This document shows positions 5,298 to 35,802 of a DNA stretch of 37,169 nucleotides, piece after piece. How positions within the stretch are numbered: position 1 is the first letter of the stretch; the number at the start of each line of letters is the position of its first letter. A program made the position numbers and the translations under genes. The DNA is from a virus. Under the pieces are notes generated by a model. That model made no database searches, was not told where the DNA came from, and saw only the letters and a list, made by a program, of their open reading frames with translations. The stretch lies in the IMG/VR virus record IMGVR_UViG_3300021960_000008. One strand, 5' to 3'.

Positions 5298-5576
5298 TCA
5301 CATTACCTCCACTCCGAAATCTATTTTCAATCTACTTAATACACATTCAGCAAATTCTTTTCTGCCAAACATAATAAAGTCATCATTAGTTTCGCATATG
5401 CCTTCTGTAAGTTCCGTCCTATTTACCTCATCTAATAAATATTCCATGAGCCAATCAATAACCCATTCTTCAGTATGCTCTTTTAGTTTAAAGGTTTTAA
5501 GCTCGCTAAGGATTTGCTCAATATCCATTTCTTGTAGCTCTAAACGAACATCTTCTTTTATTTCTTTAATACTCAT
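5298..5576 (-). CDS. Hypothetical acidic early protein
   Basis: 92-aa ORF tightly packed in the leftward block. It is E/D-rich, and I recognise no family. Confidence 0.6.
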   Translation of the reverse strand: MSIKEIKEDVRLELQEMDIEQILSELKTFKLKEHTEEWVIDWLMEYLLDEVNRTELTEGICETNDDFIMFGRKEFAECVLSRLKIDFGVEVM

Positions 5577-5812
5577 TACCTTCCCTCCATGTAATCTAAT
5601 GGCTCTTCAAAATCATCTGAGCCACCATGTATCTTTACTAGCTTATAATGTCCTTTACAGTCGTTTATATTTACCTTTTGATTTTTATTGCCATAAAAGG
5701 TTATATATACTTCATTATCTTCGGTATATAGATTAAAGTCTAAATCTTTATAACCCTTTAAATTCGTTTCAATTATCCCCCAAGTATCTTCTACAAATAT
5801 TTTACTCATCAT
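5576..5812 (-). CDS. Hypothetical early protein
   Basis: 78-aa ORF whose start and stop overlap the neighbouring genes. Confidence 0.6.
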   Translation of the reverse strand: MMSKIFVEDTWGIIETNLKGYKDLDFNLYTEDNEVYITFYGNKNQKVNINDCKGHYKLVKIHGGSDDFEEPLDYMEGR

Positions 5813-5972
5813 CTAAATCCCCCTCATCAATATCGTACTCTCTCCATGAATCATCATCCTCCATAAAAAGGTCTTCCCTAGCTTGAATACAAGCATCTTT
5901 AAAATCTAATCCTTGCTCAACATAGTACTCAGCTCGTTGCTCTAACCAAGCTTCTGTCCAATGATTACTCAT
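5802..5972 (-). CDS. Hypothetical very acidic 56-aa protein, below the ORF-track size cutoff
   Basis: Hand translation gives MSNHWTEAWLEQRAEYYVEQGLDFKDACIQAREDLFMEDDDSWREYDIDEGDLDDE. Its ATG lies 1 nt after the upstream stop, and its stop overlaps the next start (ATGATGAGTAA). Confidence 0.5.
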   Translation of the reverse strand: MSNHWTEAWLEQRAEYYVEQGLDFKDACIQAREDLFMEDDDSWREYDIDEGDLDDE

Positions 5973-5973
5973 A

Positions 5974-6162
5974 TTAATAACCTCTCTCTTTTTTTTCTTT
6001 TTCTCTATTCATCATGGCTTTTAAGACTGCTTCCTTTACTGCTTGTAAAGTATTCTCATCTAATATTTCGCCTTCAAAAACATAAAAGTCTTTATCTAAT
6101 CCGTTTTCGCTTGTTCTACTATAAAACTTCATAGACATAGACCATTCAATATTATCGCTCAT
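5974..6162 (-). CDS. Hypothetical early protein
   Basis: 62-aa ORF with RBS GGGAGGAAG. It overlaps the upstream gene by 11 nt. Confidence 0.6.
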   Translation of the reverse strand: MSDNIEWSMSMKFYSRTSENGLDKDFYVFEGEILDENTLQAVKEAVLKAMMNREKEKKERGY

Positions 6163-6361
6163 TATCTTCCTCCCTTAATTTATTGTAAAGTTTTTCATTA
6201 ACCCTGTGAACATATTTTCTTAACTTTTGTATCGCTTGAATATGGTCTGGGCTAGGTGTGTATTTAGTTTTAATAGAATTTTCAAATTGCAACAAAGCAT
6301 TTGATATCATAGAACTTTCTTGAAAATTAACTTTTATAATTGCTTTTAATTCTTTAGACAT
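6152..6361 (-). CDS. Hypothetical early protein
   Basis: The ORF runs 6152..6382. I prefer the ATG at 6361 (MSKELKAI...), which overlaps the upstream stop in AATGTCTAA and has GGAGGAAG upstream. Confidence 0.55.
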   Translation of the reverse strand: MSKELKAIIKVNFQESSMISNALLQFENSIKTKYTPSPDHIQAIQKLRKYVHRVNEKLYNKLREEDNER

Positions 6362-6590
6362 TACCAACTTCCTCCATAACATTGGCTATATTAAATATCT
6401 GTAAATTATAATCTTTTAGAATTTCGTTAATTCTTTTTCTGCATAAATCTGTGAAATCTGTATCAATAAAATCTTTTTGATTATAATAATGATGGTAGTA
6501 AACAATCATACTTAAATCATTGACCGAAATGTCATCAATGTTGTCGGCTATGACTGTGTTGATTTTGTTTGATAGTTGTTTTTTAACCAT
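6354..6590 (-). CDS. Hypothetical early protein
   Basis: 78-aa ORF with RBS AAGGGAGGA immediately after the U-tract of the upstream hairpin. Confidence 0.6.
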   Translation of the reverse strand: MVKKQLSNKINTVIADNIDDISVNDLSMIVYYHHYYNQKDFIDTDFTDLCRKRINEILKDYNLQIFNIANVMEEVGNV

Positions 6591-6604
6591 TGTAATCCTC
6601 CCTT

Positions 6605-6633
6605 AAAAAATTAGCAGTTTTAAGACTTGCTAA
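6605..6633 (-). terminator. Candidate intrinsic terminator/attenuator inside the leftward early operon
   Basis: Minus-strand RNA is UUAGCA (6633..6628), an 11-nt loop, UGCUAA (6616..6611) and UUUUUU (6610..6605). The RBS and ATG of the next gene follow directly. The stem is short and AT-rich. Confidence 0.45.
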
Positions 6634-6679
6634 GGTCTGGACAGCAGTTAACTTAGCATTTACGGAGGCTAACTGCTAA
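6611..6679. repeat. Two tandem hairpins built from the same 6-bp arms (TTAGCA / TGCTAA), with alternative pairings
   Basis: TTAGCA at 6611 and 6653, and TGCTAA at 6628 and 6674. In addition AGCAGTTA (6643..6650) is complementary to TAACTGCT (6670..6677), which allows mutually exclusive folds. Confidence 0.75.
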
Positions 6680-6894
6680 TATTCATTTTCATAAAATTCA
6701 ATCGTATCAGAATACTGTTCGGCTAATTCTGCATAATGTTTTATAATAGTAAAATGCTCATCTTTTGATAATTCAGCATCTTCACGAGCTTCTTGCGAAT
6801 GCATATTATAAAGACCAGAATATTGAACACGAACATAATTGTCGAATTCAATTGCTCCGATTGCTTCAATTCCTAAGTCTATTGGTCTAGGCAT
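6676..6894 (-). CDS. First gene of the leftward early operon; hypothetical acidic protein (possibly DUF5049-like)
   Basis: 72-aa ORF with RBS AAGGGAGGTA. The VRVQYSGLYNM motif reminds me of the sG..NM motif of DUF5049. That is a weak recollection only. Confidence 0.55.
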   Translation of the reverse strand: MPRPIDLGIEAIGAIEFDNYVRVQYSGLYNMHSQEAREDAELSKDEHFTIIKHYAELAEQYSDTIEFYENEY

Positions 6895-10025: not shown

Positions 10026-10279
10026 TGGGAAGTCCAGCATCTGTTCTTACTAGCATAATAGGTTCTGTTGCAGGTAAAACATTAAGCGATGTTTTTGGTT
10101 TTGGTAAAAAGTCAGCAAAAAAAATGACACCACCAGACCCAAAAGAGGTTATGAAACAACCAGATGTTTCAGCACAAAAAAGACTTGCGTCACAGTATGG
10201 ACAAGGTTCTACTTTGTTAACAGGCACACAGGGTGTAGAAGATACAGCAACAACTAGCAAAACTTTATTAGGCGGATAA
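10025..10279 (+). CDS. Small virion-type protein, paralogue 1 (C-terminal ...STLLTG..G....TTSKTLLGG)
   Basis: 84 aa. Its C-terminus is shared with ORF 10692..10919. The layout (G-rich N-terminus, PK-rich linker, ..TiLTG..G...kTLLG end) resembles small pre-portal proteins of podoviruses (T7 gp6.7-like position), from memory. Confidence 0.55.
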   Translation: MGSPASVLTSIIGSVAGKTLSDVFGFGKKSAKKMTPPDPKEVMKQPDVSAQKRLASQYGQGSTLLTGTQGVEDTATTSKTLLGG

Positions 10280-10704
10280 TGATTAGACCAATATTAGACC
10301 AAGCATGGAGTAAAAAATTTTATGAATGGTTACAACCTAGAGCAGAAATAGAAACTGAGGAATATACTACAATTGGTTTCTTAGATGACTGGGATAACAT
10401 AGTAGGAGTTATACTTTTTTGCAACTACGATGGTAATAACATTTATGTTCATATAGCTTCTGATTCACCTAAACACGTTAAAAGAAAATATATAAAATTA
10501 ATGTTTGATTATGTATTTAATCAAGCAAAATGTCAACGAGTAACTGCTACTTGCTATGCAGACAAAAAAAGAAGTCAAAGACTAATTGAGGGCGTTGGTT
10601 TTAAAAAAGAAGGATATTTAAAGAATTTTGTAAAAAAACATGATAAACTTAAAGATATTATTTTGTATGGTATGCAAAAGGAGGACTGTAAATGGGTGGC
10701 GTAA
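10279..10704 (+). CDS. GNAT-family N-acetyltransferase
   Basis: 141 aa. QRVTATCYADKKRSQRLIEGVGFKKEGYLKNF fits the GNAT motif A / beta-bulge region. Confidence 0.7.
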   Translation: MIRPILDQAWSKKFYEWLQPRAEIETEEYTTIGFLDDWDNIVGVILFCNYDGNNIYVHIASDSPKHVKRKYIKLMFDYVFNQAKCQRVTATCYADKKRSQRLIEGVGFKKEGYLKNFVKKHDKLKDIILYGMQKEDCKWVA

Positions 10705-10919
10705 AAGATTTAATCATGGGCGCACCAAAACCTAAAATGCCTGACTTCGGAGCTGAGGCAAGAGAAACTGCTAGAAAACAAGCAGAGTTAGATGCACAAC
10801 AAGCAAAGTTTAGAAAAAGCAGAGCTATGGGTATGGGTAGCTTAATAAAAACATCTGGCATGGGTTTAACAGAAGAAGCAACAACTTCTAAAAGTTTGCT
10901 TGGCGGATTCTATGGATAA
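10692..10919 (+). CDS. Small virion-type protein, paralogue 2 (C-terminal ...TTSKSLLGG)
   Basis: 75 aa. GSLIKTSGMGLTEEATTSKSLLGG aligns with GSTLLTGTQGVEDTATTSKTLLGG of ORF 10025..10279. The PKPKMPD segment recalls the T7 gp6.7 N-terminus. Confidence 0.55.
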   Translation: MGGVKDLIMGAPKPKMPDFGAEARETARKQAELDAQQAKFRKSRAMGMGSLIKTSGMGLTEEATTSKSLLGGFYG

Positions 10920-12558
10920 GTTTAAACATTACAAATCAGCTATAGCTCGTATGGAGGGTGACAGAGGTAACTGGGAAGACCAGTGGCAAGAAATATTAGA
11001 CTATGTTATGCCACGTAAAGCAGATGTTACTTTTGTTCGTTCACCTGGTGAAAAAAGAACTGAGGTCTTGTTTGATTCTACAGCCATAACTGCAAACAAT
11101 TTGTTAGCAGCAAGTTTGCAGGGAACTCTAACATCACCATCTTTGCAATGGTTTCATATTAGATTAAGAGATACTTTTTTAAATGACGAAAGAGATGTGC
11201 AAATGTGGTTAGAAGATTCTGCTAAAAGAATGTATGACGTCTTTAACGAAACTAATTTTAATTCAGAAGTACACGAAGCATATTTAGATATATGTTCTAT
11301 AGGAACAGCAGCATTATTTATAGAAGAAGGTTCAAAAGGTTTTCAAGAAAGTCTTATACATTTTAGAACTTTACACATTTCAGAATATTACATACAAGAA
11401 AATGTAGATGGTTATGTAGACACATTATATAGAAGATATAAATTATCAGCTCGACAAGCAGTGCAAGAGTTTGGCGAAGATAACTTAGGCGAAAAAGTAA
11501 TAAAGGCATCAAAAGAAAAACCAGATAAAGAATTTGATTTTATTCATGCAGTAGAACCATTAGAAGACTATGAAAGAATGTTTGGCAAATCAAACACTAA
11601 GCTACCTTTTCATTCATGTCATATCTGCGAACAAGATAAAATGATTGTAAGAACTGGTGGCTATAATGAATTTCCATATCTTGTACCTAGATGGGCTAAA
11701 GCTACTGGAGAAACATATGGTCGTTCTCCATCTTTCAATGCATTACCAGATATAAAAACATTAAACAAAGCTGTAGAGCTAGGACTAAAAGCATGGTCAA
11801 AAGCTATTGACCCACCATTACTTGTTGGTGATGATGGTGTTATAGGCAAAGTAAGAATGACACCTGGTGGTATAACTGTTGTAAGAGATAGAGAAGCAGT
11901 CGTGCCTCTACAAATAGGTTCTAATTTTCAATTAACAGATATGAAAGAAAACCAACTTAGACAAGCTATTAGACAAGCATATTATTCTGACCAACTACAA
12001 TTACAAGAAGGACCACAAATGACAGCTACAGAAGTACAAGTAAGATACGAACTTATGCAAAGACTATTAGGTCCTACACTCGGTAGATTCCAGTCAGAGT
12101 TTTTAAATCCACTTATAGAAAGAGTTTTTGGTATTATGCTTAGAGGAGGAGGTTTTTTACCTGCACCTGAAATAATACAAGACCAACAAATAGATGTAGA
12201 TTTTGTAGGGCCACTAGCAAGGTCACAGCGTATGGAAGAAGCAGTAGCAGTAGAAAGATTGTATCAATTAGCTATGAATATAGGACAAGTAGACCCTGCA
12301 ATAATGGATAATATAAATCATGATGTAGCAATTAGAACTAGAGCTAATTTATTAGGTGTACCTAAAACTGTATTAAGAAGCGAAGACGAAGTAGAAGAAA
12401 TTAGACAAGAAAGAGCAGCAGCACAACAAGCACAAGCAGAAGCTATGATGCAAGCGCAACAAGCACAAACTGCAAAAACAAATGCACAAGCTATGAACGA
12501 AGCAACACAAAATCCTAACATGGAAGAAATAATGCAAGCGGACGTATTACCTGAATAA
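10912..12558 (+). CDS. Portal (head-to-tail connector) protein, T7 gp8-type
   Basis: About 548 aa from the ATG at 10912 (the track uses TTG at 10900). It has portal-like length and position, the pattern WQEILDYVMPRKA ... YIQENVDGYVDTLYRRYKLSARQAVQEFG, and a Q/A-rich C-terminal tail. Confidence 0.85.
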   Translation: MDKFKHYKSAIARMEGDRGNWEDQWQEILDYVMPRKADVTFVRSPGEKRTEVLFDSTAITANNLLAASLQGTLTSPSLQWFHIRLRDTFLNDERDVQMWLEDSAKRMYDVFNETNFNSEVHEAYLDICSIGTAALFIEEGSKGFQESLIHFRTLHISEYYIQENVDGYVDTLYRRYKLSARQAVQEFGEDNLGEKVIKASKEKPDKEFDFIHAVEPLEDYERMFGKSNTKLPFHSCHICEQDKMIVRTGGYNEFPYLVPRWAKATGETYGRSPSFNALPDIKTLNKAVELGLKAWSKAIDPPLLVGDDGVIGKVRMTPGGITVVRDREAVVPLQIGSNFQLTDMKENQLRQAIRQAYYSDQLQLQEGPQMTATEVQVRYELMQRLLGPTLGRFQSEFLNPLIERVFGIMLRGGGFLPAPEIIQDQQIDVDFVGPLARSQRMEEAVAVERLYQLAMNIGQVDPAIMDNINHDVAIRTRANLLGVPKTVLRSEDEVEEIRQERAAAQQAQAEAMMQAQQAQTAKTNAQAMNEATQNPNMEEIMQADVLPE

Positions 12559-12767
12559 TGGACGATACTTTAAAACAACAAAAAAAAGATTACATGATTA
12601 CCTTCGGTACAAAAGAAGGTGAGCGAGTTTTAGCTGATTTACTTTCAGCTTATTATCATAGGAGTTCTTTTAGTAAAGACCCTTATGAAACTGCTTTTAA
12701 GGAAGGGCAAAGAGCAGTAATAGTCAGAATACTAAATCTTTTAAAGGAGGATAATAATAATGGCTGA
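12558..12767 (+). CDS. Conserved small protein after the portal gene (possibly Bbp19-like)
   Basis: 69 aa with a TAATG overlap with the portal gene. TFGTKEGERVLADLL...PYETAFKEGQRAVIVRIL resembles a small family seen after portal genes. The recollection is uncertain. Confidence 0.55.
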   Translation: MDDTLKQQKKDYMITFGTKEGERVLADLLSAYYHRSSFSKDPYETAFKEGQRAVIVRILNLLKEDNNNG

Positions 12768-13599
12768 CGAAACAATGACCACAGAAGTGGCAGACAACCC
12801 ACAAACAGAAGTGTCAGGAGATTCTGTTTTAGGGTCTGGCATAAGTGATAATCAAACAGCAACTGATTGGAAATCATCTTTGCCACAAGAATTACAAAGC
12901 GACCCAACACTCGCAAATTTTAAAGATGTTGAATCTCTTGCAAAAACTGTTGTGCATCAACAAAAAGTATTAGGTAGTAGAATACCTATACCAAAAAATG
13001 ATGAGGAGAAAGCAGAGTTATACACTAAGCTAGGACGACCAGAAGAAGCTAGTGGGTATGAAGTGCAAATACCAGAAACTCATTCACAGTTTTTTGAAGA
13101 AAATCAAGTAACGGAGTTTAAAGAAGTTGCACACAAGATAGGTCTGAACAACGAGCAGGTAAATGCTTTGATAGACTATCAAGTAAACAACATAGAAAAT
13201 GCAGCACAATATCAAGCTGCAGAATTAAACTCTGGTAGAGAAGAAGCACAAACTACACTTCAAAAAGAATGGGGTGTGGAGTACGATAAAAATTTAAGAG
13301 CAGCACATAGAGCATTACAAGTATATGGCAATGAAGAAGTGCAAGAAGCTGTAAATGGAGAATTAGGAAATAATCCTGCATTTATAAAAATGCTTGCAAA
13401 CATTGGCTCAGAGGTTACAGAAGATATGGCACAAAACACATCTAACAACAATATTGCTGTATCAGTATTGGATGCAAAAGCAGAAATAGAATCTATTATG
13501 CAAGACCCAAGTAATCCATATTTTAATGCTGGACACAAAGACCATAGAAGTGCAATAGAAAGAATGAGGCAATTGCACGAAAAAGTCTATGGAAAATAA
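12760..13599 (+). CDS. Putative scaffolding protein
   Basis: 279 aa, acidic and helical, with RBS AAGGAGG. It lies between the portal and major capsid genes. Confidence 0.6.
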   Translation: MADETMTTEVADNPQTEVSGDSVLGSGISDNQTATDWKSSLPQELQSDPTLANFKDVESLAKTVVHQQKVLGSRIPIPKNDEEKAELYTKLGRPEEASGYEVQIPETHSQFFEENQVTEFKEVAHKIGLNNEQVNALIDYQVNNIENAAQYQAAELNSGREEAQTTLQKEWGVEYDKNLRAAHRALQVYGNEEVQEAVNGELGNNPAFIKMLANIGSEVTEDMAQNTSNNNIAVSVLDAKAEIESIMQDPSNPYFNAGHKDHRSAIERMRQLHEKVYGK

Positions 13600-13607
13600 T
13601 TATCTTG

Positions 13608-13616
13608 TGCTATAAT
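13608..13616 (+). promoter_or_regulatory. Extended -10 promoter (TGcTATAAT) ahead of the capsid gene
   Basis: TG at 13608..13609 and TATAAT at 13611..13616. There is no good -35, which extended -10 promoters tolerate. Confidence 0.45.
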
Positions 13617-13628
13617 TAAAATACCAAA

Positions 13629-13703
13629 ATCTGCCCGTTAGGATAACAGATGTGGTGGCCATGATGGCGTTAAAAATTAGGTTTCCCGTTATGGATAAAA
13701 ACC
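13629..13703 (+). promoter_or_regulatory. Twin hairpins with different stems but near-identical loops (CCCGTTA(T)GGATAA) in the capsid-gene leader
   Basis: Hairpin 1 has stem ATCTG (13629..13633) / CAGAT (13647..13651) and loop CCCGTTAGGATAA. Hairpin 2 has stem GGTTT (13680..13684) / AAACC (13699..13703) and loop CCCGTTATGGATAA. The loop motifs start 51 nt apart. Confidence 0.5.
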
Positions 13704-13737
13704 GCAACATCATTATTTTTTTAAAGGAGGACAGGTT

Positions 13738-14601
13738 ATGTCAACACAAATAACTACAGCTTTTGTTGAACAATACAAAAGCAATGTATTTCATTTGGCA
13801 CAGCAAAAAGGTTCAAGACTTAGAAATGCAGTCCGTACAGAAACAGTTGTCGGAAAATCGCATTACTTTGAAAGAATTGGCTCAACTGCTGCGCTAAAAA
13901 GAACATCCAGACATAGTGACACTCCAAGAGTAGACACACCACACTCTAGAAGACGAGTTACTATGGATGATTACGATTGGGCAGATTTAATTGACAATGA
14001 AGATAAAATCAGAATGTTAATTTCTCCACAATCAGAATATGCACAAGCTGGAGCTTGGGCAATGGGAAGAGCAATGGATGATGCAATCATTGATGCTGCT
14101 AGCGGAAACGCTTTTGGTGGTGTTAGTGGTGGTACAACAGTAGCTTTACCATCTGCACAAAAAATTGTGCATGCTTCTGCAGGTATGACACTTGAAAAAC
14201 TTATAGAAGCAAAAGAAATCTTAGATGCTGCTGATGTAGACCCAGAAGAGCCTAGATATATAGTTGTTACTTCACAACAATTATCTGATTTATTGGCTTT
14301 AGAAAAAATTACTTCTGGTGACTATGCAAGTATCAAAGCTCTAGTACAAGGTGAGATTGACACTTATATGGGATTCAATTTCATTAGAACAGAAAGATTA
14401 GATGCAAATGCTTCTAGCAATAGATTATGTTTAGCTTTCTGTCAATCAGCAATAGGGCTTGCTCTAGGCCAAGATATTAATACAAAAATATCTGAAAGAG
14501 CAGACAAAAATTATGCAACACAGGTATTCTTGTCAATGACTATCGGTGCAACTCGTATCGAAGACGAAAAAGTTGTTGAGATTGAATGTACTGAGAGTTA
14601 A
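13738..14601 (+). CDS. Major capsid protein (HK97-fold type)
   Basis: 287 aa with strong RBS AAAGGAGG. It follows the scaffold gene. FVEQYKSNVFHLAQQKGSRLRNAV...HSDTPRVDTPHSRRRVTMDDYDWADLIDNEDKIRML matches podovirus capsid proteins as I recall them. Confidence 0.85.
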   Translation: MSTQITTAFVEQYKSNVFHLAQQKGSRLRNAVRTETVVGKSHYFERIGSTAALKRTSRHSDTPRVDTPHSRRRVTMDDYDWADLIDNEDKIRMLISPQSEYAQAGAWAMGRAMDDAIIDAASGNAFGGVSGGTTVALPSAQKIVHASAGMTLEKLIEAKEILDAADVDPEEPRYIVVTSQQLSDLLALEKITSGDYASIKALVQGEIDTYMGFNFIRTERLDANASSNRLCLAFCQSAIGLALGQDINTKISERADKNYATQVFLSMTIGATRIEDEKVVEIECTES

Positions 14602-14616
14602 TAGGAGGAAAGAAAA

Positions 14617-15126
14617 ATGGCAACAGCTAAATCAGTAGAAATTACAGCTTTAGACGCATCGCCTAGAGAACTCCTAGAAACAGGAAGTTTAGAGGGCAGG
14701 ATGCGTGTAGCAAGTGGAACGATAGCAGCTGGAACAGGCGACATTGATAATGATGATGTATTAATGATGGTACAAATTCCATCTAATGCAAAAGTATTAT
14801 CAATCAAACTATTCAATGACGATTTAGATTCTAATGGTTCACCAACATTGGCAGCCAACGTAGGTCTATATTATGAGAATGGTACTGTTCTTGATGAAGA
14901 TTGTTATGCAACAGCTATAACAACTTTACAAGCTGCAGAAACAGGTGGCGCTGAAGTTGCTTTCGAAGCTAGAAATGTTAATGCAGTTTCTAACTTTGCA
15001 TGGGAAGATGGTGGTTTATCATCTGACCCAGGTGGGGTTTTAAGAATAGCTTTAACTATTTCTAACGTAGCAGCAACAGCAGCAGCTGGTGATGTATCAG
15101 TTATCGTTACATATGTTGTAGACTAA
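14617..15126 (+). CDS. Hypothetical structural protein (possible capsid decoration or minor capsid protein)
   Basis: 169-aa ORF with RBS AGGAGGAAAG immediately after the capsid gene. It is followed by a GC-rich hairpin. The function is inferred from position only. Confidence 0.5.
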   Translation: MATAKSVEITALDASPRELLETGSLEGRMRVASGTIAAGTGDIDNDDVLMMVQIPSNAKVLSIKLFNDDLDSNGSPTLAANVGLYYENGTVLDEDCYATAITTLQAAETGGAEVAFEARNVNAVSNFAWEDGGLSSDPGGVLRIALTISNVAATAAAGDVSVIVTYVVD

Positions 15127-18397: not shown

Positions 18398-20500
18398 ATG
18401 AAAGTACCTAAATTACAGAAACAATACTTACCAATACAAAGTGGTATAGGTATACAATCAGGTGACCCTGGAGCATTTACTGCAGGCATAGGACAACTTG
18501 GTCAAAAAATAGCTGATGTCTTAGGACAACAATATAATATAAAACTTAGCAAGCAAAATAGAGTTAGAATAGATGGTGAAAAATTACAAGCAAAAACAGA
18601 ATTTTATAATTTAAATGACCAATATAAAGAGGATTTAAAAGCTAAAACTTTAGGAACTTTAAATCCAAATGAATATCAAGGAATATATGAAAAAAGAGTA
18701 AATAAGTTTTTAAAAGATTCTACAAAAAAATATCACTCACAAACAATGGCAGAAGTGCAAGGTGAATTAATGTGGGAATCACGTTTAGTATATGATGAAA
18801 TAAGAGATATTACATCATCATTGCAACAAACAAAAAATAAAGATTTATTTATAAATGAAACTGTACCTAGTTATAGAAAAAGATATAATGAAAAATCAAC
18901 AGCAGGTGGTATTAATGCTGACTTTCAAAGTTTTATTATTGATTTAAATGCTATGAAAAACAGTTTGTCAGCAGAAGAATTTGATAAATTGCTAGAAAAT
19001 AATAGATATGAAGCTAATAAAGCATTATTAAGTTTAAACATAAAAACAAAAATGCGAGAAGAATTAAAGCTAGAAAATGTTTCTGAATCTCTTATCAACG
19101 ATAGAATGGATGAAGGAATAAGTTTGTTAAAAATGATAGAAGAATTAGAAACTAATGGTATAACAACATTAGATACAAAAGAAAAATTATCACCAGACAA
19201 TCCTGTTGTTAAAAATATGATAGACGATATCACAGAAGAATTAGATGCTTACAATAAAGCTACTGAAAAACAAGGAAAATTTAAAGTAAATCAGGCAAAA
19301 AAAATTATTCCTGATTTGATAGACCAATACGACAAAGCAGAATCATATGACGATATGAAAAGAATTAGTCAAGAAATTGATGATGCAATGAATGACTTGC
19401 CTTTAGAAGAGAGAGCTAAATATGATAAGCTTGTTAAAAATGAAGTTGCAGAAACTGAAAGGTCAATAAAACTTTATAGATTATTGTTAGATTCTGCAAA
19501 TCAAGGTTTATACGATGATTATTTTCACGATAAAGTTTTAGATTATGTAGATATGGATATGCTTACAAAAGCACATGCAACAGAAATAATTTCTGCTGGT
19601 AAAAGCAAAAAAGAACTTTTAGATAAAACGATAAACGATGTTGTTCTTAAAAACAATTTAAAAATTTTATTAACTGAATTAAATGGTTCACAAGAAATGA
19701 TTGATGTAATAACTACTTCAAAAATGCAAGGCCAATCTAGACTAATTGCATTAGAAAGCATGAAAGAATCTATGAGTTCTAAATATAATCAAAAAGCAGG
19801 AGATGCTATACAAATTTATTTAGAAACAATAGAAGCAGGAATGAAACAAGGATTTACTATGGATGAAATTCTTTCTAACAAATTAAACGTAGGTGGTGAA
19901 AGCACAGGAAATTTAGTAAAAGATATTGTAAATTTTGTTAAAAGTGATGCATATACTAAAGGAGTTGACAATGCTAAAAGCAGAGCTAACATTGTCCAAG
20001 ATATTAAAAACGAACTAACACAAAATCAAAACTTAGTAGTAGTAAATGGAAATCCTGCATATCTTTCAGATGCGCAAGCTCTTGGATATTATTTTTCTAA
20101 AAAACTTGATATTGCAAATACTGAGTTTGATAACCAATGGAGAGAAAGAAGGACAATAGGAACTAGTCAGCAAACACAACCTGATGGAACAATTGTAGAA
20201 TATCCTGTATATGAATCTATTGTTGAATATAGTAAAAGACAAGACTTATACAAATTGGCTAAAAATGCAAGATTAAATTTAACTCCTAAAGAATTTACAA
20301 AATTAGGTCAAGCTTTAGGTTTTGATGATGCAAATGTTAAAGCTGTTGCAACAGAAATTTATAAAGTACCTGGTCAAAAACCAATACAAAAACAAGAAGA
20401 AGATAAAAGTGATAGAGTTACAGACGTAAAAAAAGAAGCTATAAATATACACAAAAATAAAATGAGTGAACAGGATAAAGAAAAATATGGCGTTGAATAA
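18398..20500 (+). CDS. Internal virion / ejection protein (T7 gp15-like position), K/E/N-rich and helical
   Basis: 700-aa ORF that follows the stop codon of the previous gene without a gap. The call rests on composition and synteny, and I recognise no motif. Confidence 0.55.
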   Translation: MKVPKLQKQYLPIQSGIGIQSGDPGAFTAGIGQLGQKIADVLGQQYNIKLSKQNRVRIDGEKLQAKTEFYNLNDQYKEDLKAKTLGTLNPNEYQGIYEKRVNKFLKDSTKKYHSQTMAEVQGELMWESRLVYDEIRDITSSLQQTKNKDLFINETVPSYRKRYNEKSTAGGINADFQSFIIDLNAMKNSLSAEEFDKLLENNRYEANKALLSLNIKTKMREELKLENVSESLINDRMDEGISLLKMIEELETNGITTLDTKEKLSPDNPVVKNMIDDITEELDAYNKATEKQGKFKVNQAKKIIPDLIDQYDKAESYDDMKRISQEIDDAMNDLPLEERAKYDKLVKNEVAETERSIKLYRLLLDSANQGLYDDYFHDKVLDYVDMDMLTKAHATEIISAGKSKKELLDKTINDVVLKNNLKILLTELNGSQEMIDVITTSKMQGQSRLIALESMKESMSSKYNQKAGDAIQIYLETIEAGMKQGFTMDEILSNKLNVGGESTGNLVKDIVNFVKSDAYTKGVDNAKSRANIVQDIKNELTQNQNLVVVNGNPAYLSDAQALGYYFSKKLDIANTEFDNQWRERRTIGTSQQTQPDGTIVEYPVYESIVEYSKRQDLYKLAKNARLNLTPKEFTKLGQALGFDDANVKAVATEIYKVPGQKPIQKQEEDKSDRVTDVKKEAINIHKNKMSEQDKEKYGVE

Positions 20501-23500
20501 CACTATACCTACAAGAACAGAATTGATGCAAGCTGGTTACGATGTAAAAACAGTAGATAGTATTATAGGAAACCGTAATACTCTTTTAAAAAAACAAGGA
20601 TTTAGTGAACATGATATAAATGTTTATGATGGTGTTTATCCTAGAGATAAAGAACTTATACCTTCTTTAATGTTTGCTTTTGATAATAAATTTAATCTTA
20701 CAAAAAATGAATACGAAAATAGCAAAAACAATCCTGAAATATTGTCACAATTAATAGACGAAAAAGCAAAATCATTTAATAATTATTACGAAAAGCTTTA
20801 TACAAATGATAAGAATTTTACTAAATTAGCTACAGATGGTTTGCTAAATTTACAAAAACAAAAACCCTTTAAAACCCCAGATTTGTTACAACAAAATTTA
20901 ATAAATCCTGACGGCACAAATATAGCAGATTATTTAGGAACAAATAATATTGGCTTATATGATTATGATATAGGTAAACCTGTTTATGATTATTTGTTTT
21001 CACGATACCCTGATTTTACACAAGAAAACAAAGATAATTTGCACTATCTACTTAGCCGTATAGCTTCTAATGAAAGCAACACTACTATGAAATATGATGC
21101 AGATAAAAATAGAGGTGGAGCTTTCGGATATGATACAAAAAATGAAATTACTGCACCTAATAGTTTTCGTGGTGCATTAACTTTGTTGCAAAGACAATAT
21201 GATAGAGATAATGACCCTGTTCCATTTTGGGTGTTAGATGCATTAAAACACAATAATCCAACAAGATTAAGTCCAGCTCAAGAAATAGAATTGCAAACAG
21301 CAATATATAATAGTGTGCCTGCCAAAATGAGATTAGGAATAGCTAAAGGTAACAAAGAAGTCATGTTAGATTATTACAGAATTTATGTAAATGACAATAA
21401 ACAAAAAGTTGAAGAATTTGCAAAACTATTAGAACAAAACGATAACGTAGTACCTGTTGGTTTTGATTTACCATATTTTAGTGATACTGATTATTCAGTA
21501 CAAAATACTTTTTTAGAGCCTTATGCAGATAGAGTTAAAAACTTTTTTGGTGGCCAAGGTTATAATGCTATCTTAGGAAATGGTAGTTTAAATCATAGTT
21601 ACATTGGAAGAGGCATAGATTATGCAAGATTTCATTTTGGCTATATGAGTAAAGATGAAGCAATGAATAGAATTGCTGTTGCTGATTCAATTCATCAAAG
21701 TCGTAGCAATGGTTTTAATTCTTTTATGCATGAACTTGTTACTTTCGGACTTAATTATCCAACATATTCTGGATTCGGCAGACTTTTTGCTGCAGGCACA
21801 AGTTTTACAAAAATGCCTTTAATTCAATCAATTATAGGTGGAGCTGGTAGTTTTGTAGGACCAGAACTTATGCACCAACCAATACTTGCTGCTCTTAGAG
21901 ATGGTCAAAAAATAAACAACTTAGAACAATTAAATGATTATTTGTGGTCTAATGAAGCATTGCAAGTATATATGGATTCAGCAGTTTTAGGTTCAGTAAC
22001 TGCAGGTAGTGCAATAATGTTTAGACGAGCCAATAGTCAATTGTTAGCAAATCAAATAGCAAAAAATTACAACAAAAATAATTTTTTAATGTGGGGTGGA
22101 GCTTTAGGAAAAACAGAAGCTGCAGGTTCTATATTTGGATTAGGAACAGGTATGTCTGTTTTAGATTATTACCATACAGGTGAATTTAATTTTCAAGACA
22201 ATTATCTTTCTGCAAGTGCATTTGTTGGTGCTGTAGGTCTTTCTAAATATGCATTTCGTAATTTTAAATCAATGTTTGAAACAAATAAAATAAGAGATGA
22301 CCATTTTAAAGAAGGAACACTTGCAAATGATTTCTTAAAAACTGGATATAAAGACCCAGCTACTGTTGCTGGTGAAAATACTTTTGATTTATACATGAAA
22401 CTTAAGAAAGGTGTAAATGTAATAATTCCTAAAAAATTTAAAATTAATGAAGAAATTACAGGCAATAGTAAAGTTGTAAACGAAAAAGAACAAAACGGAA
22501 CAATCTTGTTAGAAACTGAAAGTCCTTCTGGTGCAAAAAATATTGAATTAGCAGAAAATGTTTTGAAAGATAATGTAGATTCAAATCTTAGATATAATGA
22601 AGAAAAACAAAAGTATGAAAACATACTAGAATCTGAACCACGTGAATATAAGATAAATCAAACAGACACAGAAAAATTGTCATTTAATAATGAAAGACCT
22701 AATTTACAACGAAATTATTCTTTATCGTTTGTAAAAAATGCATTAGAAGAAGTAGTAAGACATTATGGAACTACGACTGACACAGTTTTATTGCTAGCAA
22801 AAGATTATCCAGAATTTAATGAGTATATTGCAGAATCAGGAATTATGCCTGTACCTGATGTTGAAAAAAATTTAAAATATTGGAAACAAGATACTGAATA
22901 CGATAAAACAAAAGTATTTGGTACAAGCTTTGAAACAACTATTGACCAACACAACCAGGTAATATCAAATATTTTTAATTCAAAAAAAAATCAGTTTCAA
23001 GAATTAAATTTAAATGTTGACACAGGTTCAATTGCTATTTTTAAAACAGCAGATATGTATGTTGGATTGCCGTCAAAATTATACAAAATATTGTCAAATC
23101 CTAAAAATTTAAAAGGTGATGAGGAGTATGACAAACCATCTATGGTATTTCATCCTAAAAGAGGAATGGATTTAAATGATGTAAGAGAGTTTATGTATAG
23201 TACAGATGTGCAAGAAATTGGTCGTTTAATTTTTATAGACAAAGATGGTAAGGTTCTAGCTAGTGTAAAACCTTTAAATGTAGCACGTTATGCACAATTA
23301 ATAGAAAAAGCTAAAAAAGAATATAAAAGAGATGATGAAGCTATAATTATTAAAGATACAGGTTTAAAAAATGGTGGAACACCACATGAACCTCATGTTT
23401 TAATTGAATCAGTATTTGATGAAAAAACAGTAAATTCTATATATAATCAAAAAACAGGGTTAGACTATATAGATGCATCTATGATAGTTTTAGCTGTTAC

Positions 23501-26500
23501 TGGTAAAAAAATACAAAACATACCAACTGGGTCTTATGGTCATTATGACCCTACTGATAACACTGTAAACATAAGTCCTATAAAACATGTAAGTGCTTTA
23601 AAATTTGGCACTGGAGAGTCAACTGAAAAGATAGGTGGATTTATTGGAAAACAATTGCCTGGTTTTGCTTACACTATAAGTCAAGCTATTACAGCTTTTC
23701 ACGAAATAGGTCACATGGAACAAGGAAATGCAGATGGTTTTACACCAAGTAGTTATGGGTACGAAAGTTGGGGGGAGTTTATCAAAGCTTATGGAGTTGA
23801 AACAACTTTCGGAGGAGCAAAAGCTATTGATTTGCCGTTTGATTTTACAGTAGAAGAATTTAGAAATAGAGCAGCTAAATGGGAAGAAGGATTTAAAGCA
23901 ATAGAAAGAATGGATGCTGATGCTTTATACAAACTTTTTGGTACAGGAAATATTATTGGTAATTTAACAAAAGCAAAAGGTTTTATATATAATGCTATTA
24001 ACAAAAAAACTGGAGAAATAAAAGGAGTATTAGATAAAACAATTTTAGATGCATTATATGAAGAAGCACTAGCAGATGCAAAAATAGCTGAAAAAGAATG
24101 GCAAAAAGAAATTGATGCTATGGGTCTTCAAATTACACCAAAAGACATTTTATCTGTTTGGAATAAAACTAATGCAAGAGATTTTTTACCACCTGAATTA
24201 TATGACAAAATAGCAAGAGCTGATGAAGCATTAAAAAAAGAAATTATTAAACAAGCAATGAAAGGCATTATACATGATGATTTAAAAGTAATAGTTGATT
24301 TAATAAATGATGTAGAAATAACAAAACCTGATTTTGCAGCACAAGCTAAAAAAAGATTTGCAGAAGCTGTGCAAAGAGAAATGAATCGCAGAGGAATGGT
24401 TACATTAGAACAAATTACAAATGAAATTGCAGATATAAGTTTAATTATAAGACCTGTTACTATGTTTACAAACATTACTCGTTCGAAAATGGGATATGTA
24501 AAAGTAACTAAAGAATCTTTTATGAAAATAATTAAAATGAATGAAAAAGAAATTGCAAAAGAAATAGAGAAAGTCAAAAAAAAGATTGCAGCAGCACCAG
24601 GAGCAGAGACAACAGCAAATCTAACTAATTATGAAAAATATTTAAATGCGTTTGACGCTGAAGAGTTATCATATAGACGTAATAGTGCAGAAATGTATGC
24701 TGACTTTATGAGCGCACTTTTAGCACATCCAGAACTTGTTAAAGATAGAGCGCCTAATGCTCTAGAATTATTCCATAATTTTATGGACGAACGACCAGCT
24801 TTTAAAAAGATTTATACAGAAATATTAAATCAATTAAATGCAGGAACTAATGCTAGAGCAGATGCTGCTATTAAATTTATGGCTGACGATATTAAAAAAG
24901 AATCTGACAATGCTATATCAAGACTTAGCAAAAGAACAAAATCATTAATATTAGACCCATTAAGCAACAATTTTATAGATTTAGCAAAACAAATTTTTGT
25001 ATCAAAAGAAGCTTACATAAATGCAAGAACAGATAGTTATAGACCATCTTTAACAAATGGTATAGCAAGTTGGAAAAATACTGAACTTTCACCAACAGGA
25101 AAACCTACTGGTCGTTATGTAGGACTTAGTGAAGCAGAAAGAGTACAGGCTAAAATAGATGATTACAAAATGTTTGGGTCAACTGCCGAAGCATATCAAA
25201 TGGACACGTTAAACAATGTAGTTAATCCTGCAAAAGAATATCTTGCAGAAAAAGGTAAACCCTATGATTATTTTTCTGTCCTTATAATAGCTAACAGATT
25301 ACACTCTCTTAAAAAAACTGGAGAAAAAGATATTGAATCTCCTTATAAGTTAATATCAGAAGATGAATATTTTGTAAACTTAGAAAAAGCTCAAGAACAA
25401 GTAGAAGCTCTCGAAAATAAAGAAGATGCAGAATATGAATTACAACAAGCTAAAGAAAAATTAAATGTTTTAAAAGGTTTAGAAAAATATATAAATCAAT
25501 TTAGAACTATAGAAGATTTGAAAACACATTTTGATGAAAACTATCCAGAATTAAATAAGATTGCGGAAGTTTTTTATACACAAAATCGTGAATTTATGAG
25601 AAATGCTTTTAGTCATGGTGCAACTGAATCTATAACTAGAGAACAATATGATATGTTTATAGAAAAAGCACCTATAAAATTTTATGCTACATTAAAACCA
25701 GTAGATAAAATATATGATGCAATAGCTGGTCATGATTATACTGGAAGTTTTGGTGGTAGTAAACTTGACACAGCTTTTCACGAAGGTTTTTTTAATACAC
25801 CTTTAGACCCTGTTTTTGCAACAGTACAAAAATTATCTGTTATTGGTGCAAGAGAAAAACGTAATCAAGCACTTCTTTCAATGATAGGAAAACCTATTGA
25901 TGGAGAATATATGTCAGAACGTATTCCTACATCTTCTATAAATTACAAAGAAGATATAGATATGTGGAAAGCATTAGATAACACAGCAGGATTTTTTATA
26001 CAATATGCAGATGTGTTTCAATATTATGATTCATGGCATAGCATGACTATACCTTTTGATACTAGTGGTCTTACAAAAGAAGAATTAAAAGAATATAATG
26101 AACACAATCCTAAAAACACACGTGAACACATAGAGTTTGTACGAAAATTTTCTAAAAAATTATTTAAAGAAAAATTAGCTCGACCATCAGCAGTGCCAGT
26201 AGAATATAAAGGAAAAGTAGTAGAGCAAACTAAAAGATTTGTAGTATCTGGAATGAGTAGGTATGCAATTTATTCTGGTAAAGGCAGTGGAGATGTTCGC
26301 AAAATAGTTGATGTAATAACAAGAGAGGAATTAACTAAGGAAGAATATGTTGAATTAGTTGCAGAAAAAAATGAAGAACTAGCTGAGTTTTACGAAAAAT
26401 ATAAAAAAGCTCCTAAAAGAAAAAGAGTGCCTATAGGTTTTTATTCAAAGAAACAATTTGGAATTGTAAGGCCAGAAATTAGAATTAGCTATGAAGACTT

Positions 26501-35774: not shown

Positions 35775-35802
35775 ACTTTAATAATAACATAAGTTATCCA
35801 CA

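What the first reader, a model, noticed from the sequence alone, without database searches (positions are those of the whole stretch)
13600..13737. Twin hairpins with covarying stems and a conserved 13/14-nt loop in the leader of the major capsid gene
The 139-nt scaffold-capsid intergenic region starts with an extended -10 promoter (TGcTATAAT). It then carries two hairpins whose 5-bp stems are unrelated in sequence: ATCTG/CAGAT and GGTTT/AAACC. Their loops are almost identical: CCCGTTAGGATAA and CCCGTTATGGATAA, starting 51 nt apart. Conserved loops on different stems are what one expects from a structure-specific RNA-protein recognition element, such as a translational operator, a processing site or a stabiliser for the most abundant late mRNA. 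Alternatively the 13/14-mer could be a duplicated DNA site for a late regulator. I did not notice this motif elsewhere in the window.
Basis: seen in the sequence. Interest (0 to 1): 0.7.

Follow-up and report, generated by a model that had tools for sequence, protein, structure and literature searches.

The report
Conserved capsid mRNA leader hairpins
The two small hairpins in front of this marine phage's major capsid gene are real, conserved RNA structures; they share a one-by-four-base internal loop that also occurs in leaders of distantly related phages, which points to an uncatalogued RNA control element for late-gene expression.

Summary
Both hairpins, their near-identical inner sequences 51 nt apart, and the TGcTATAAT element lie where stated, in the 138-nt scaffold-capsid spacer of an HTVC010P-type pelagiphage.

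Comparison with about 200 related loci changes the anatomy. Each "13/14-nt loop" is really three parts:
- an unpaired C;
- a short inner helix (CC/GG, 2-6 bp in relatives) capped by a non-conserved loop;
- a conserved 3' AYAA strand.

The unit is a hairpin with a 1x4 asymmetric internal loop. Outer stems covary strongly: 96.7% of cells are paired, and 163 cells show double-sided changes versus 49 in shuffles. A covariance model finds exactly one copy per relative, always in the capsid-gene leader. G·U pairs place the structure on the sense strand.

The same module (C / ANAA, closed by C-G) precedes capsid genes in HTVC010P, Hodr, freshwater podoviruses and Ralstonia phages. In Ralstonia phage it also follows a promoter in front of a tail gene. 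Rfam 15 has no match.

Best reading: a cis-acting leader RNA of late mRNAs. Its 5' end is base-paired, and its internal loops probably serve as a recognition site for an unknown protein that controls stability or translation. The structure is shown; the function is inferred.

The parts
13608..13616 (+). Extended -10 promoter element TGcTATAAT (TG 13608-09, TATAAT 13611-16)
   Evidence: Read directly from the sequence. T, A and the final T of the hexamer are invariant, and TG is at least 90% conserved, across 32 diverged leaders. The simple sigma-70 scanner does not list it because no -35 match exists. No phage RNA polymerase was found among the 27 ORFs scanned (the structural-module ORFs at 10279-15126 and the non-structural ORFs); the late ORFs after 15126, including the 2754-aa ORF at 20466-28730, were not scanned. 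Promoter activity itself is inferred.
13622..13657 (+). Hairpin 1 with its outer helix P0. P0 is UACC 13622-25 paired with GGUG 13654-57. P1 is AUCUG 13629-33 paired with CAGAU 13647-51. C13634 is unpaired. P2 is CC 13635-36 paired with GG 13641-42. The apical loop is GUUA 13637-40 and the 3' internal-loop strand is AUAA 13643-46.
   Evidence: Folded alone, it gives exactly this structure at -9.4 kcal/mol with z -2.35. P1 covaries: for example, one pair reads UA24 GC16 CG14 AU10 GU2 with 0 unpaired. P0 covaries as UACC/GGUA, UACA/UGUA and UACAGC/GCUGUA, and the flank helices are longer than in shuffles, 5.16 versus 4.51 +/- 0.14.
13658..13668 (+). Central small hairpin hp2: GCC 13658-60, loop AUGAU, GGC 13666-68
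   Evidence: It covaries in the hand-anchored seed; the middle pair reads GC14 CG10 UA4. Alone it folds at -4.5 kcal/mol with z -2.7. The HTVC010P clade has the equivalent AGUC-UAAC-(A)GACU.
13669..13679 (+). Single-stranded linker GUUAAAAAUUA containing the conserved UAAA. Many relatives carry an extra hairpin (hp3) inserted here.
   Evidence: The A residues of UAAA are invariant or nearly so in alignment A1. The hp3 insertion is visible.
13680..13704 (+). Hairpin 2 (called hp4 in the family numbering). P1 is GGUUU 13680-84 paired with AAACC 13699-703. C13685 is unpaired. P2 is CC 13686-87 paired with GG 13693-94. The loop is GUUAU, the 3' strand is AUAA 13695-98, and G13704 is conserved.
   Evidence: The sequence is nearly invariant across the clade. 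Its exact consensus was found in at least 120 viral contigs; 118 of the 118 fetched have a capsid gene starting 20-80 nt downstream on the same strand. The inner helix lengthens with compensatory changes in relatives: 36 extra nested pairs versus 14 +/- 3.4 in shuffles.
13705..13740 (+). A/U-rich spacer, Shine-Dalgarno GGAGG (13726-13730) and the capsid start codon (13738-13740)
   Evidence: Sequence. The capsid identity comes from Pfam PF19821 (E 1.6e-93) and PHROG 'major head protein'.

Best explanation
The element is a cis-acting structured leader RNA of the major-capsid (late) mRNA. A host-type extended -10 promoter in the scaffold-capsid spacer starts a transcript at about A13623. The first bases of that transcript are immediately locked into hairpin 1.

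The leader carries two copies of one module, flanking a small GC hairpin. The module consists of:
- an outer stem;
- one unpaired C;
- an inner helix closed by a C-G pair;
- a 3' AYAA strand.

I infer two layers of function.
1. The base-paired 5' end and the compact hairpins protect the untranslated leader from 5'-end-dependent decay. This lets the capsid message out-accumulate the upstream portal and scaffold messages.
2. The invariant 1x4 internal loop is a specific docking site for a trans-acting protein that tunes stability or translation of late messages. That protein is either conserved in this phage lineage or universal in Proteobacteria. Two modules in this clade would allow dimeric or cooperative binding. 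Hairpin 2 ends 34 nt before the AUG, at the 5' edge of the ribosome-binding region.

Shown: the structure, its strand, its conservation and its gene context. Inferred: the transcription start, protection from decay, and the existence and identity of a binding partner.
For: Structure and covariation:
- In the hand-anchored seed, 95.4% of cells are paired and 10 of 17 pairs show double-sided changes; slid controls give 28-51%.
- In the model-based alignment of 67 distinct leaders, 96.7% are paired versus 81.2% in shuffles. There are 163 double-change cells versus 48.6, and slid controls give 18-60%.

Uniqueness and context:
- There is one hit per locus in 575 kb, always the capsid leader.
- 118 of 118 pattern hits lie 20-80 nt upstream of a capsid gene.
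- There is one hit in the window.

Sense-strand RNA:
- The helices contain tens of G·U/U·G cells.

The internal loop is the conserved core:
- The 5' nucleotide is C in 68 of 76 copies of hairpin 1 and 76 of 76 copies of hairpin 2. The 3' strand is AUAA or ACAA in all of them, while apical loops vary.
- The same module occurs in the HTVC010P clade (AGAA/AUAA), in a freshwater phage and in Ralstonia phage, and in Hodr.
- Fifty distinct Ralstonia-like modules read GGC|C|P2|ACAA|GCC with P2 covarying: 190 nested pairs versus 79.8 +/- 6.3.

Promoter and 5'-end pairing:
- TGnTAnnnT is conserved.
- The outer helix begins 6-7 nt after the -10.
- A promoter-then-module arrangement recurs before a tail gene in Ralstonia phage, with compensatory changes in a relative.
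- No phage RNA polymerase was found among the 27 ORFs scanned with Pfam or PHROGs; the late ORFs after 15126, including the 2754-aa ORF, were not scanned.
Against: - No transcript ends, decay rates or binding data exist, and no candidate RNA-binding protein was found in the ORFs scanned.
- Hairpin 2 alone is thermodynamically marginal, and the whole-leader MFE is a different fold.
- In the HTVC010P clade the module sits in an intergenic spacer without an obvious strong promoter. Protection of the 5' end therefore cannot be the universal role.
- In the Ralstonia-like clade the module lies about 60-80 nt from the AUG, too far for simple ribosome occlusion.
- Alignment A3 was normalised by hand and A4 was fitted to the model, so both lean towards the structure.
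Confidence: 0.5

Rival explanations
1. The element is a purely passive stabiliser or insulator. The hairpins protect the long untranslated spacer from RNase E or Rho and need no specific partner. The conserved internal loop would then only set helix geometry or stability.
For: - The 5'-terminal pairing of P0 begins right after the -10.
- The leader is compactly structured in every clade.
- No RNA-binding protein was identified.
Against: - A passive hairpin should tolerate any sequence. Instead the C / ANAA loop and its C-G closing pair are held across phages whose capsids are only 31-47% identical and whose genomes differ greatly in G+C.
- The outer stem of hairpin 2 is also frozen in sequence.
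Confidence: 0.25
2. The element is a processive antitermination or RNA-polymerase-modifying leader, like lambda nut/boxB with N or HK022 put. The nascent hairpins, alone or with a phage protein, would ride on RNA polymerase and carry it through the long late operon.
For: - The modules sit directly downstream of promoter-like -10 elements, both in the window and at two separate late-gene leaders of Ralstonia phage.
- Paired hairpins with an invariant small signature resemble nut and put logic (from general knowledge of those systems).
Against: - There is no boxA-like element and no conserved apical loop.
- In the HTVC010P clade no clear promoter precedes the module.
- No terminator-like sites on the + strand were found downstream in the scanned late region, apart from a hairpin inside the capsid ORF.
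- No Rfam family matches.
Confidence: 0.1
3. The element is a capsid-specific autogenous translational operator. Unassembled capsid or scaffold protein would bind the twin hairpins and repress capsid translation, as with the MS2 coat operator or the thrS two-hairpin operator.
For: - In pelagiphages the element always lies immediately upstream of the capsid gene.
- Two similar units suit a dimer.
- Hairpin 2 ends at about -35 relative to the AUG.
- The module tracks this capsid family across hosts.
Against: - The same module also precedes a tail gene in Ralstonia phage and a relative.
- The module is 60-80 nt from the AUG in the GC-rich clade.
- No evidence exists that these HK97-fold capsid or scaffold proteins bind RNA.
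Confidence: 0.12
4. The element is a ligand-sensing tandem-hairpin riboswitch, or an SD-sequestering switch. The 5' strand of hairpin 1 would alternately pair with the SD-AUG spacer.
For: The window's MFE (-29.6 kcal/mol) pairs AAUCUGCC of hairpin 1 with GGACAGGUU next to the SD. Close relatives with GGAGGAC show similar complementarity.
Against: - Across the family the complementarity is no better than controls: -4.39 versus -4.22 +/- 0.28 for shuffled strands and -4.06 +/- 0.18 for permuted partners.
- Apical loops are not conserved.
- Many clades have a single module.
- The conserved core is too small for a typical ligand pocket.
Confidence: 0.04
5. The element acts through its primary sequence. 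Either it is a duplicated double-stranded DNA site for a late regulator, or it offers CsrA-type GGA motifs presented in loops.
For: - The two inner sequences are nearly identical, 51 nt apart.
- GGA is present in both inner sequences and in the SD.
Against: - The stems covary with abundant G·U pairs, a property of sense-strand RNA.
- The spacing between CCC and GGAYAA varies from 3 to 9 nt.
- The GG is base-paired, and it is replaced by CG (L026), AG (L061), UG/AG (HTVC010P clade) and ACG/CAG (Ralstonia-like clade), each time with a compensating partner. GGA is therefore not required.
Confidence: 0.03

Closest known systems
Phage T7 gene 10 leader (phi10 promoter, 5' stem-loop, A/U-rich enhancer, strong SD)
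   Same: - It has the same genomic slot in a podovirus with the same gene order of portal, scaffold, capsid. A promoter sits inside the scaffold-capsid spacer, a hairpin starts at +1, then come an A/U-rich stretch and a strong SD (searches compared with 1, 84).
- The T7 leader even contains the 8-mer GGTTTCCC found at 13680-87.
- Relatives of the window carry UUAACUUAA(C), close to T7's UUAACUUUAA.
   Different: - T7 uses its own RNA polymerase promoter. Its single hairpin is a plain stem with an ACAAC loop and has no 1x4 internal loop or second module.
- Homology is not demonstrated, and the shared 8-mer may be coincidence.
5'-terminal stabiliser hairpins and differential-stability leaders of major structural genes (E. 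coli ompA 5' UTR; the papBA transcript processed to a stable papA mRNA). This comparison rests on established knowledge.
   Same: - A hairpin lies at or within a few nucleotides of the 5' end of a very highly expressed structural-protein mRNA.
- The purpose would be higher output than from the upstream cistrons.
   Different: - Those elements have no conserved sequence signature.
- Here a specific internal loop is conserved across very distant phages.
- Transcript ends have not been mapped here.
Protein-binding operator hairpins: the thrS operator (two similar hairpins bound by a dimer), the MS2/PP7 coat-protein hairpins and the T4 gene 32/regA operators. This comparison rests on established knowledge.
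   Same: - Stems are free to covary while a small unpaired signature is fixed.
- In this clade the unit is duplicated on unrelated stems.
- The location is in the translation-initiation leader.
   Different: - No partner protein is known.
- The signature is a 1x4 internal loop, not an apical loop or a single bulged A.
- The module also occurs before a non-capsid gene and far from the SD in other clades.
Lambda nut (boxA/boxB) and HK022 put antitermination RNAs. This comparison rests on established knowledge.
   Same: - They are promoter-proximal hairpins in phage operon leaders.
- There is more than one site per genome (seen here in Ralstonia phage).
   Different: - There is no boxA, no conserved GNRA-like pentaloop and no N-like gene.
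- Antitermination was not tested.
Unnamed candidate structured RNAs predicted from IMG/VR (Fremin et al. 2023, PMC10690425)
   Same: - That screen used the same data source (IMG/VR) and targeted the same kind of object: covarying motifs just upstream of phage genes.
- This motif could be among its 8,495 candidates.
   Different: - The paper highlights the GP20 and GP32 leaders, not capsid leaders.
- Its supplementary tables are not held, so overlap could not be checked.
- No match exists in Rfam 15.

Membership tests
Any Rfam 15 family | A covariance-model match at or near the family's gathering score | tested here: not met
   The window gave 0 hits at gathering thresholds. In E-value mode on 13580-13760 only two chance hits appeared, at E 4-6. 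Fourteen diverse leaders gave 0 hits at E <= 1.
CsrA/RsmA binding sites | An invariant GGA exposed in the apical loop of a short hairpin | tested here: not met
   The GG pairs with CC and changes with compensation: CG/CG in L026, CUA/UAG in L061, CUGUC/GACAG, CAGA/UCUG and CGUCC/GGACG. A model in which loop nucleotides pair with AYAA so as to expose GGA is not maintained across the variable loop sequences listed; this was judged by reading those sequences, not by a computed test.
Guanidine-II-like tandem-hairpin riboswitch | Two hairpins with conserved apical tetraloops (ACGR) that dock on each other | tested here: not met
   Apical loops are variable (GUUA, GUAA, GAAA, UUAC, UUUUU and others). 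Many clades have a single module.
SD-sequestering riboswitch or thermosensor | Conserved alternative pairing between the leader and the SD/AUG region | tested here: not met
   Duplex energy between the 5' strand of hairpin 1 and the RBS is -4.39, versus -4.22 +/- 0.28 for shuffled strands and -4.06 +/- 0.18 for permuted partners. No conserved complement of the hairpin 2 strands exists within -600 to +1000.
Lambda-type nut site | A boxA element plus a boxB hairpin with a conserved GNRA-like pentaloop | tested here: not met
   The conserved single-stranded element upstream is not boxA-like, and apical loops are not conserved.
RNase III processing hairpin (T7 R-site type) | About two turns of double-stranded RNA interrupted by an internal loop | tested here: not met
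   P0, P1 and P2 of hairpin 1 total 11 bp, and hairpin 2 totals 7 bp. Cleavage itself cannot be tested here.
Kink-turn and the 11-nt GAAA tetraloop receptor | Tandem sheared G·A pairs after a 3-nt bulge, or the CCUAAG/UAUGG sequence | tested here: not met
   The internal loop is C opposite A-Y-A-A, flanked by Watson-Crick pairs. It contains no GA/AG tandem and no receptor sequence.
Intrinsic terminator or attenuator | A GC-rich stem followed immediately by a U-tract | tested here: not met
   The terminator scan lists nothing in 13600-13737. The run of U at 13715-21 lies 12 nt after hairpin 2.
5'-terminal stabiliser hairpin (ompA type) | A stem beginning within about 0-4 nt of the transcript's 5' end | not testable with these tools
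   The predicted start, 7 nt after TATAAT, falls on A13623, inside P0. The transcription start has not been mapped.
Protein-binding translational operator | A demonstrated specific protein partner and repression of the downstream gene | not testable with these tools
   Only the sequence logic is available: covarying stems and a fixed internal loop.
Capsid-leader C/ANAA hairpin module (the family defined here) | An outer stem, one unpaired 5' nucleotide (C), an inner helix closed by C-G, a 3' ANAA strand, location on the sense strand in a late-gene leader | tested here: met
   Both window hairpins satisfy the strict descriptor. They align to the 76-member model alignment. The same features are seen in the HTVC010P, Hodr, freshwater and Ralstonia-like clades.

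The most novel reading that the evidence does not exclude
The C/ANAA hairpin is the RNA half of an ancient, lineage-wide regulatory pair. A conserved protein of these BPP-1/HTVC010P-like podoviruses (or the RNA polymerase or ribosome itself) would read this loop on nascent late transcripts. Through it the phage would couple virion-protein supply to assembly, or make late transcription processive. That would be a new phage late-gene control system operating in some of the most abundant viruses in the ocean.
Probability: 0.15. Interest if true: 0.8.

Novelty: new member of a known kind. Interest (0 to 1): 0.6.

Why it matters
HTVC010P-type pelagiphages are among the most abundant viruses known, yet almost nothing is known about how they regulate gene expression. 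They lack their own RNA polymerase, and their SAR11 hosts have very few regulators.

This analysis gives a sharply defined, covariation-supported RNA motif at the gene that must be expressed most highly. The motif is shared with phages of Ralstonia and with freshwater phages. Its core is small enough (C opposite ANAA between two G-C pairs) for direct mutational, pull-down and structural tests.

It is also ready as a new Rfam family, and it would serve as a marker for capsid-gene starts in fragmentary viral contigs.

Tried and rejected
- **Whole-leader single-sequence folding.** It gives a different, non-conserved fold.
- **RNAalifold on plain MAFFT alignments.** It recovers only hairpin 2, because the stems are misaligned. 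I therefore built a hand-anchored, normalised seed and a covariance model.
- **Rfam.** Nothing was found at gathering or E-value thresholds, either in the window or in 14 diverse leaders.
- **Copy in a host genome.** The exact hairpin 2 consensus gives 61 hits in 596 Gb of genomes, about the chance number by my own rough estimate (~34; no control was run). Only one hit (L120) has a capsid gene, and it is a mis-binned phage contig. The general module could not be searched in SAR11 genomes.
- **Anti-SD switch.** Not conserved.
- **Long-range partners of the hairpin 2 strands.** None found.
- **CsrA-type GGA loops, K-turn, tetraloop receptor, RNase III site, terminator.** All were rejected on the defining features listed in the membership table.
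- **Extra modules in the window.** The loose hits at 3929, 10905, 34406 and 36341 and at 35791 are at chance frequency. Those at 3929, 10905, 34406 and 35791 lie inside ORFs, and 36341-36369 (+ strand) lies opposite minus-strand ORFs.
- **An RNA-binding regulator among the window's proteins.** Pfam and PHROGs show only structural, replication, terminase and Cro-like functions.
- **Literature.** No paper links pelagiphages to an RNA motif. The supplements of the IMG/VR csRNA screen are not held.
- **The recurrent GGUAG near these leaders.** I judged it to be part of the outer helix or the start-site context, not a separate motif. This is unresolved.
Full report
**What the window is**

The region lies in the structural module of a podovirus related to Pelagibacter phages. 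DNA similarity finds only pelagiphages, the best being Baldr EXVC032P at 71%.

The neighbouring genes are:
- a T7-type portal (PF12236);
- a small Bbp19-like protein;
- a scaffold or assembly protein;
- a capsid protein of family PF19821.

The ORFs scanned outside the structural module encode a Cro-like regulator, primase, helicase and terminase. No RNA polymerase was found among the 27 ORFs scanned, but the late ORFs after 15126 (including the 2754-aa ORF at 20466-28730) were not scanned. On that evidence host-type promoters are expected.

**Checking the observation**

The sequence is as described.
- The scaffold gene stops at 13599 and the capsid ATG is at 13738, so the spacer is 138 nt.
- TGcTATAAT lies at 13608-16.
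- Hairpin 1 is ATCTG/CAGAT around CCCGTTAGGATAA (13629-51).
- Hairpin 2 is GGTTT/AAACC around CCCGTTATGGATAA (13680-703).
- The two inner sequences start 51 nt apart.

The motif occurs nowhere else in the window.

Thermodynamics alone would not have revealed the hairpins.
- The MFE of the leader is a different fold with z -0.95.
- The conserved structure scores -15.9 kcal/mol, against -29.6 for the MFE.
- Hairpin 2 alone is only -2.9 kcal/mol.
- Hairpin 1 with its outer helix does fold as proposed, at -9.4 kcal/mol with z -2.35.

**Relatives**

The capsid protein retrieved 80 IMG/VR loci at 78-99% identity. Their upstream regions show the same leader with obvious compensatory changes.

The exact hairpin 2 consensus was found on at least 120 further viral contigs. 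All 118 fetched have a capsid homologue on the same strand, starting 20-80 nt downstream.

In 596 Gb of prokaryotic genomes the same pattern gives 61 hits, about the number my own rough calculation predicts by chance (~34; no control was run). Only one of these precedes a capsid gene, and it sits on a small mis-binned contig.

**Refined anatomy**

Comparison shows that the "loop" has three parts:
- an unpaired nucleotide, C in 68 of 76 copies of hairpin 1 and 76 of 76 copies of hairpin 2;
- an inner helix P2 that begins with C-G;
- a 3' strand AUAA or ACAA.

P2 is CC/GG in the window. It lengthens in relatives to CCG/CGG, CCUA/UAGG and CCUGU/ACAGG, and changes to CG/CG in L026. For hairpin 2 there are 36 extra nested pairs versus 14 +/- 3.4 in shuffles.

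The apical loop is variable (GUUA, GUAA, GAAA, UUAC, UUUUU and others).

Other features of the leader:
- Hairpin 1 is extended by an outer helix P0, (U)ACC 13622-25 paired with GGU(G) 13654-57. It covaries as UACC/GGUA, UACA/UGUA and UACAGC/GCUGUA.
- A small central hairpin, GCC-AUGAU-GGC, also covaries.
- Many relatives carry a fourth hairpin inserted in the UAAA linker.

**Statistics**

MAFFT misaligns the stems, and RNAalifold recovers only hairpin 2. I therefore anchored 28 diverse leaders on the conserved CCC and GGAYAA signatures. Variable loops and linkers were trimmed to equal length, which gave a gapless alignment.

On that alignment 95.4% of cells pair and 10 of 17 pairs show double-sided changes. 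Sliding the partners gives 28-51%.

A covariance model built from it behaves as follows:
- In the window it finds one hit, at 58.4 bits.
- In 80 sources totalling 575 kb it finds one hit in each of 76 sources, always the capsid leader. The four sources without a hit are the distant isolates HTVC010P, HTVC028P, Greip and Skadi-3.

The model alignment of 67 distinct sequences gives:
- 96.7% paired cells, versus 81.2% in shuffles;
- 163 double-change cells, versus 48.6;
- slid controls of 18-60%.

Individual pairs of hairpin 1 use four to five pair types with no unpaired cases, for example UA24 GC16 CG14 AU10 GU2. Frequent G·U pairs place the structure on the sense strand.

Two caveats apply. The seed was curated by hand and the second alignment was fitted to the model. 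The sequences are also related to one another, so the shuffle counts are not probabilities.

**Depth of conservation**

Cultured HTVC010P-clade phages have capsids 54-61% identical to the window's. They lack hairpin 1 but keep the central hairpin, followed by one module with AGAA or AUAA.

The module also precedes the capsid gene in:
- pelagiphage Hodr (31% capsid identity, AAAA variant);
- freshwater podoviruses (39-47%);
- Ralstonia phage DU_RP_II (43.5%).

The strict descriptor finds the module in four of these: DU_RP_II, Hodr and two of the three freshwater phages. Each of those has a shuffle probability of 0.008-0.034. The third freshwater phage (L271) carries the module by eye but fails the descriptor because its outer stem has a bulge.

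Eighty IMG/VR relatives of the Ralstonia phage yield 50 distinct modules reading GGC|C|P2|ACAA|GCC.
- P2 covaries strongly: the third pair reads UA25 GC12 AU7 CG2 UG2.
- There are 190 nested pairs versus 79.8 +/- 6.3 in shuffles.

The invariant core is therefore the 1x4 internal loop and its closing pairs, conserved across genomes of very different base composition.

No Rfam 15 family matches any of these leaders.

**Context clues to function**

- TG and the T, A and final T of the -10 are invariant or nearly so in 32 leaders. P0 begins 6-7 nt downstream, so the 5' end of the predicted transcript is base-paired.
- In Ralstonia phage a second module lies at L361:19587-19608. It sits behind a TGcGATAAT element, 26 nt before the start of a tail gene. 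It recurs with compensatory differences in a relative whose tail protein is 47% identical. In that clade the module is therefore a feature of late-gene leaders and is not capsid-specific.
- In the window, hairpin 2 ends 34 nt before the AUG.
- In the window, the 5' strand of hairpin 1 can pair with the SD-AUG spacer, but this is not conserved across the family.
- No long-range partner of the frozen hairpin 2 strands was found.

**Interpretation**

The structure, its strand, its conservation and its leader context are established.

I infer a cis-acting late-mRNA leader with two properties. Its paired 5' end and compact hairpins protect the message. Its invariant internal loop is read by a protein, either conserved in the phage lineage or universal in Proteobacteria. 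In this clade the module is duplicated.

The rivals, in order of weight, are:
- a purely passive stabiliser;
- a nut/put-like antitermination leader;
- a capsid-specific autogenous operator, weakened by the tail-gene copy;
- a riboswitch or SD switch, not supported;
- a DNA or CsrA-type primary-sequence site, contradicted by covariation and by loss of GGA with compensation.

**Comparison with known systems**

The closest analogue in architecture is the T7 gene 10 leader. It also has a promoter in the scaffold-capsid spacer, a 5' hairpin, an A/U-rich stretch and a strong SD.
- It even shares the 8-mer GGTTTCCC.
- It lacks the internal-loop module and uses T7 RNA polymerase.

The logic of covarying stems around a fixed unpaired signature resembles the operator hairpins of thrS and MS2, and lambda nut. 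The defining features of those families are not met.

A large IMG/VR screen predicted thousands of unnamed structured RNAs upstream of phage genes (PMC10690425). This motif may be among them, but that could not be checked.

**Verdict**

This is a real, well-supported and uncatalogued RNA motif: a new member of the class of phage leader RNAs. Its function remains to be tested.

Noticed in passing
window 13759-13782 (+), inside the capsid ORF, codons 8-15: There is a perfect 8-bp hairpin, GCUUUUGU-N8-ACAAAAGC, 21 nt after the ATG. All 8 pairs are kept in 16 of 17 distinct relatives. This includes G-C, G·U and A-U alternation at pair 7, and fixed synonymous choices (GCU, UUU). This suggests selection on RNA structure at the start of the capsid coding region.
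   Followed up: partly
L361 (Ralstonia phage DU_RP_II) 19560-19634; L363 about 330-400: A second C/ACAA module (GGCC C CCG CUU CGG ACAA GGCC) sits behind a TGcGATAAT element, 26 nt upstream of tail gene p016. It is conserved with compensatory changes in a relative (GGC C CCGG ACU CCGG ACAA GCC).
   Followed up: partly
L273 (Alteromonas phage ZP6) and L278 (Vibrio phage K300), about 60-150 nt upstream of the capsid ATG: Gammaproteobacterial relatives (capsids about 29-32% identical) have TGnTATAAT followed by paired hairpins of a mirrored design. A 4-nt GUAG lies on the 5' side and 1-2 nt on the 3' side, next to a CC/GG or CG/CG inner helix; an example is CAG-GUAG-CC-ACUA-GG-U-CUG. This may be an analogous leader motif, but it has not been analysed statistically.
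   Followed up: no
Relatives L005, L009, L026, L032, L064 and others, between the central hairpin and hairpin 2: Many leaders carry an extra covarying hairpin (hp3). It is introduced by a conserved CCG-NNN-GA, has a CG(U)-containing loop, and is followed by YAAGG. The preceding UAAAAUCCG resembles the 3' strand of hairpin 2 (AUAAAAACCG), so an alternative pairing with GGUUU is conceivable.
   Followed up: no
window 13659-13667 versus 13686-13694, and 13628-13636 versus 13729-13737: Two complementarities are specific to the window's lineage. The central hairpin's CCAUGAUGG can form 9 bp with hairpin 2's CCGUUAUGG. The 5' strand of hairpin 1 can pair with GGACAGGUU next to the SD. Together these give the -29.6 kcal/mol MFE. 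Neither is conserved across the family.
   Followed up: yes
L365 (phage T7, 22904-22969), and the leaders of L260, L262, L032 and L064: The T7 gene 10 leader contains GGTTTCCC, identical to 13680-87. Its UUAACUUUAA enhancer-like stretch resembles the UUAACUUAA(C) present upstream of the SD in many pelagiphage capsid leaders, though not in the window itself. Whether this is homology or coincidence is unresolved.
   Followed up: partly
L120 (NHDJ01000148.1, labelled Verrucomicrobia bacterium TMED56): This 8.9-kb MAG contig carries the full leader element and a capsid gene 74% identical to the window's. It is almost certainly a pelagiphage-like contig binned into a bacterial MAG.
   Followed up: partly
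L361 5835-6312 (Ralstonia phage DU_RP_II): The annotated 600-nt gap between the scaffold-like gene and the capsid gene appears, from reading the sequence, to contain unannotated small ORFs. The last ends ...ADKSAPIFE*. The true untranslated capsid leader would then be only about 116 nt. HTVC010P-clade phages likewise have a small ORF between the scaffold and capsid genes, which the window's clade lacks.
   Followed up: no
window 1-37169: The window looks like a complete or nearly complete phage genome of about 37 kb. It has a Cro-like regulator at 945-1163 and a block of minus-strand small ORFs at 5298-6894. Its other coding features are a 2754-aa ORF at 20466-28730 and a GNAT acetyltransferase-like ORF at 10279-10704, just upstream of the portal gene.
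   Followed up: no
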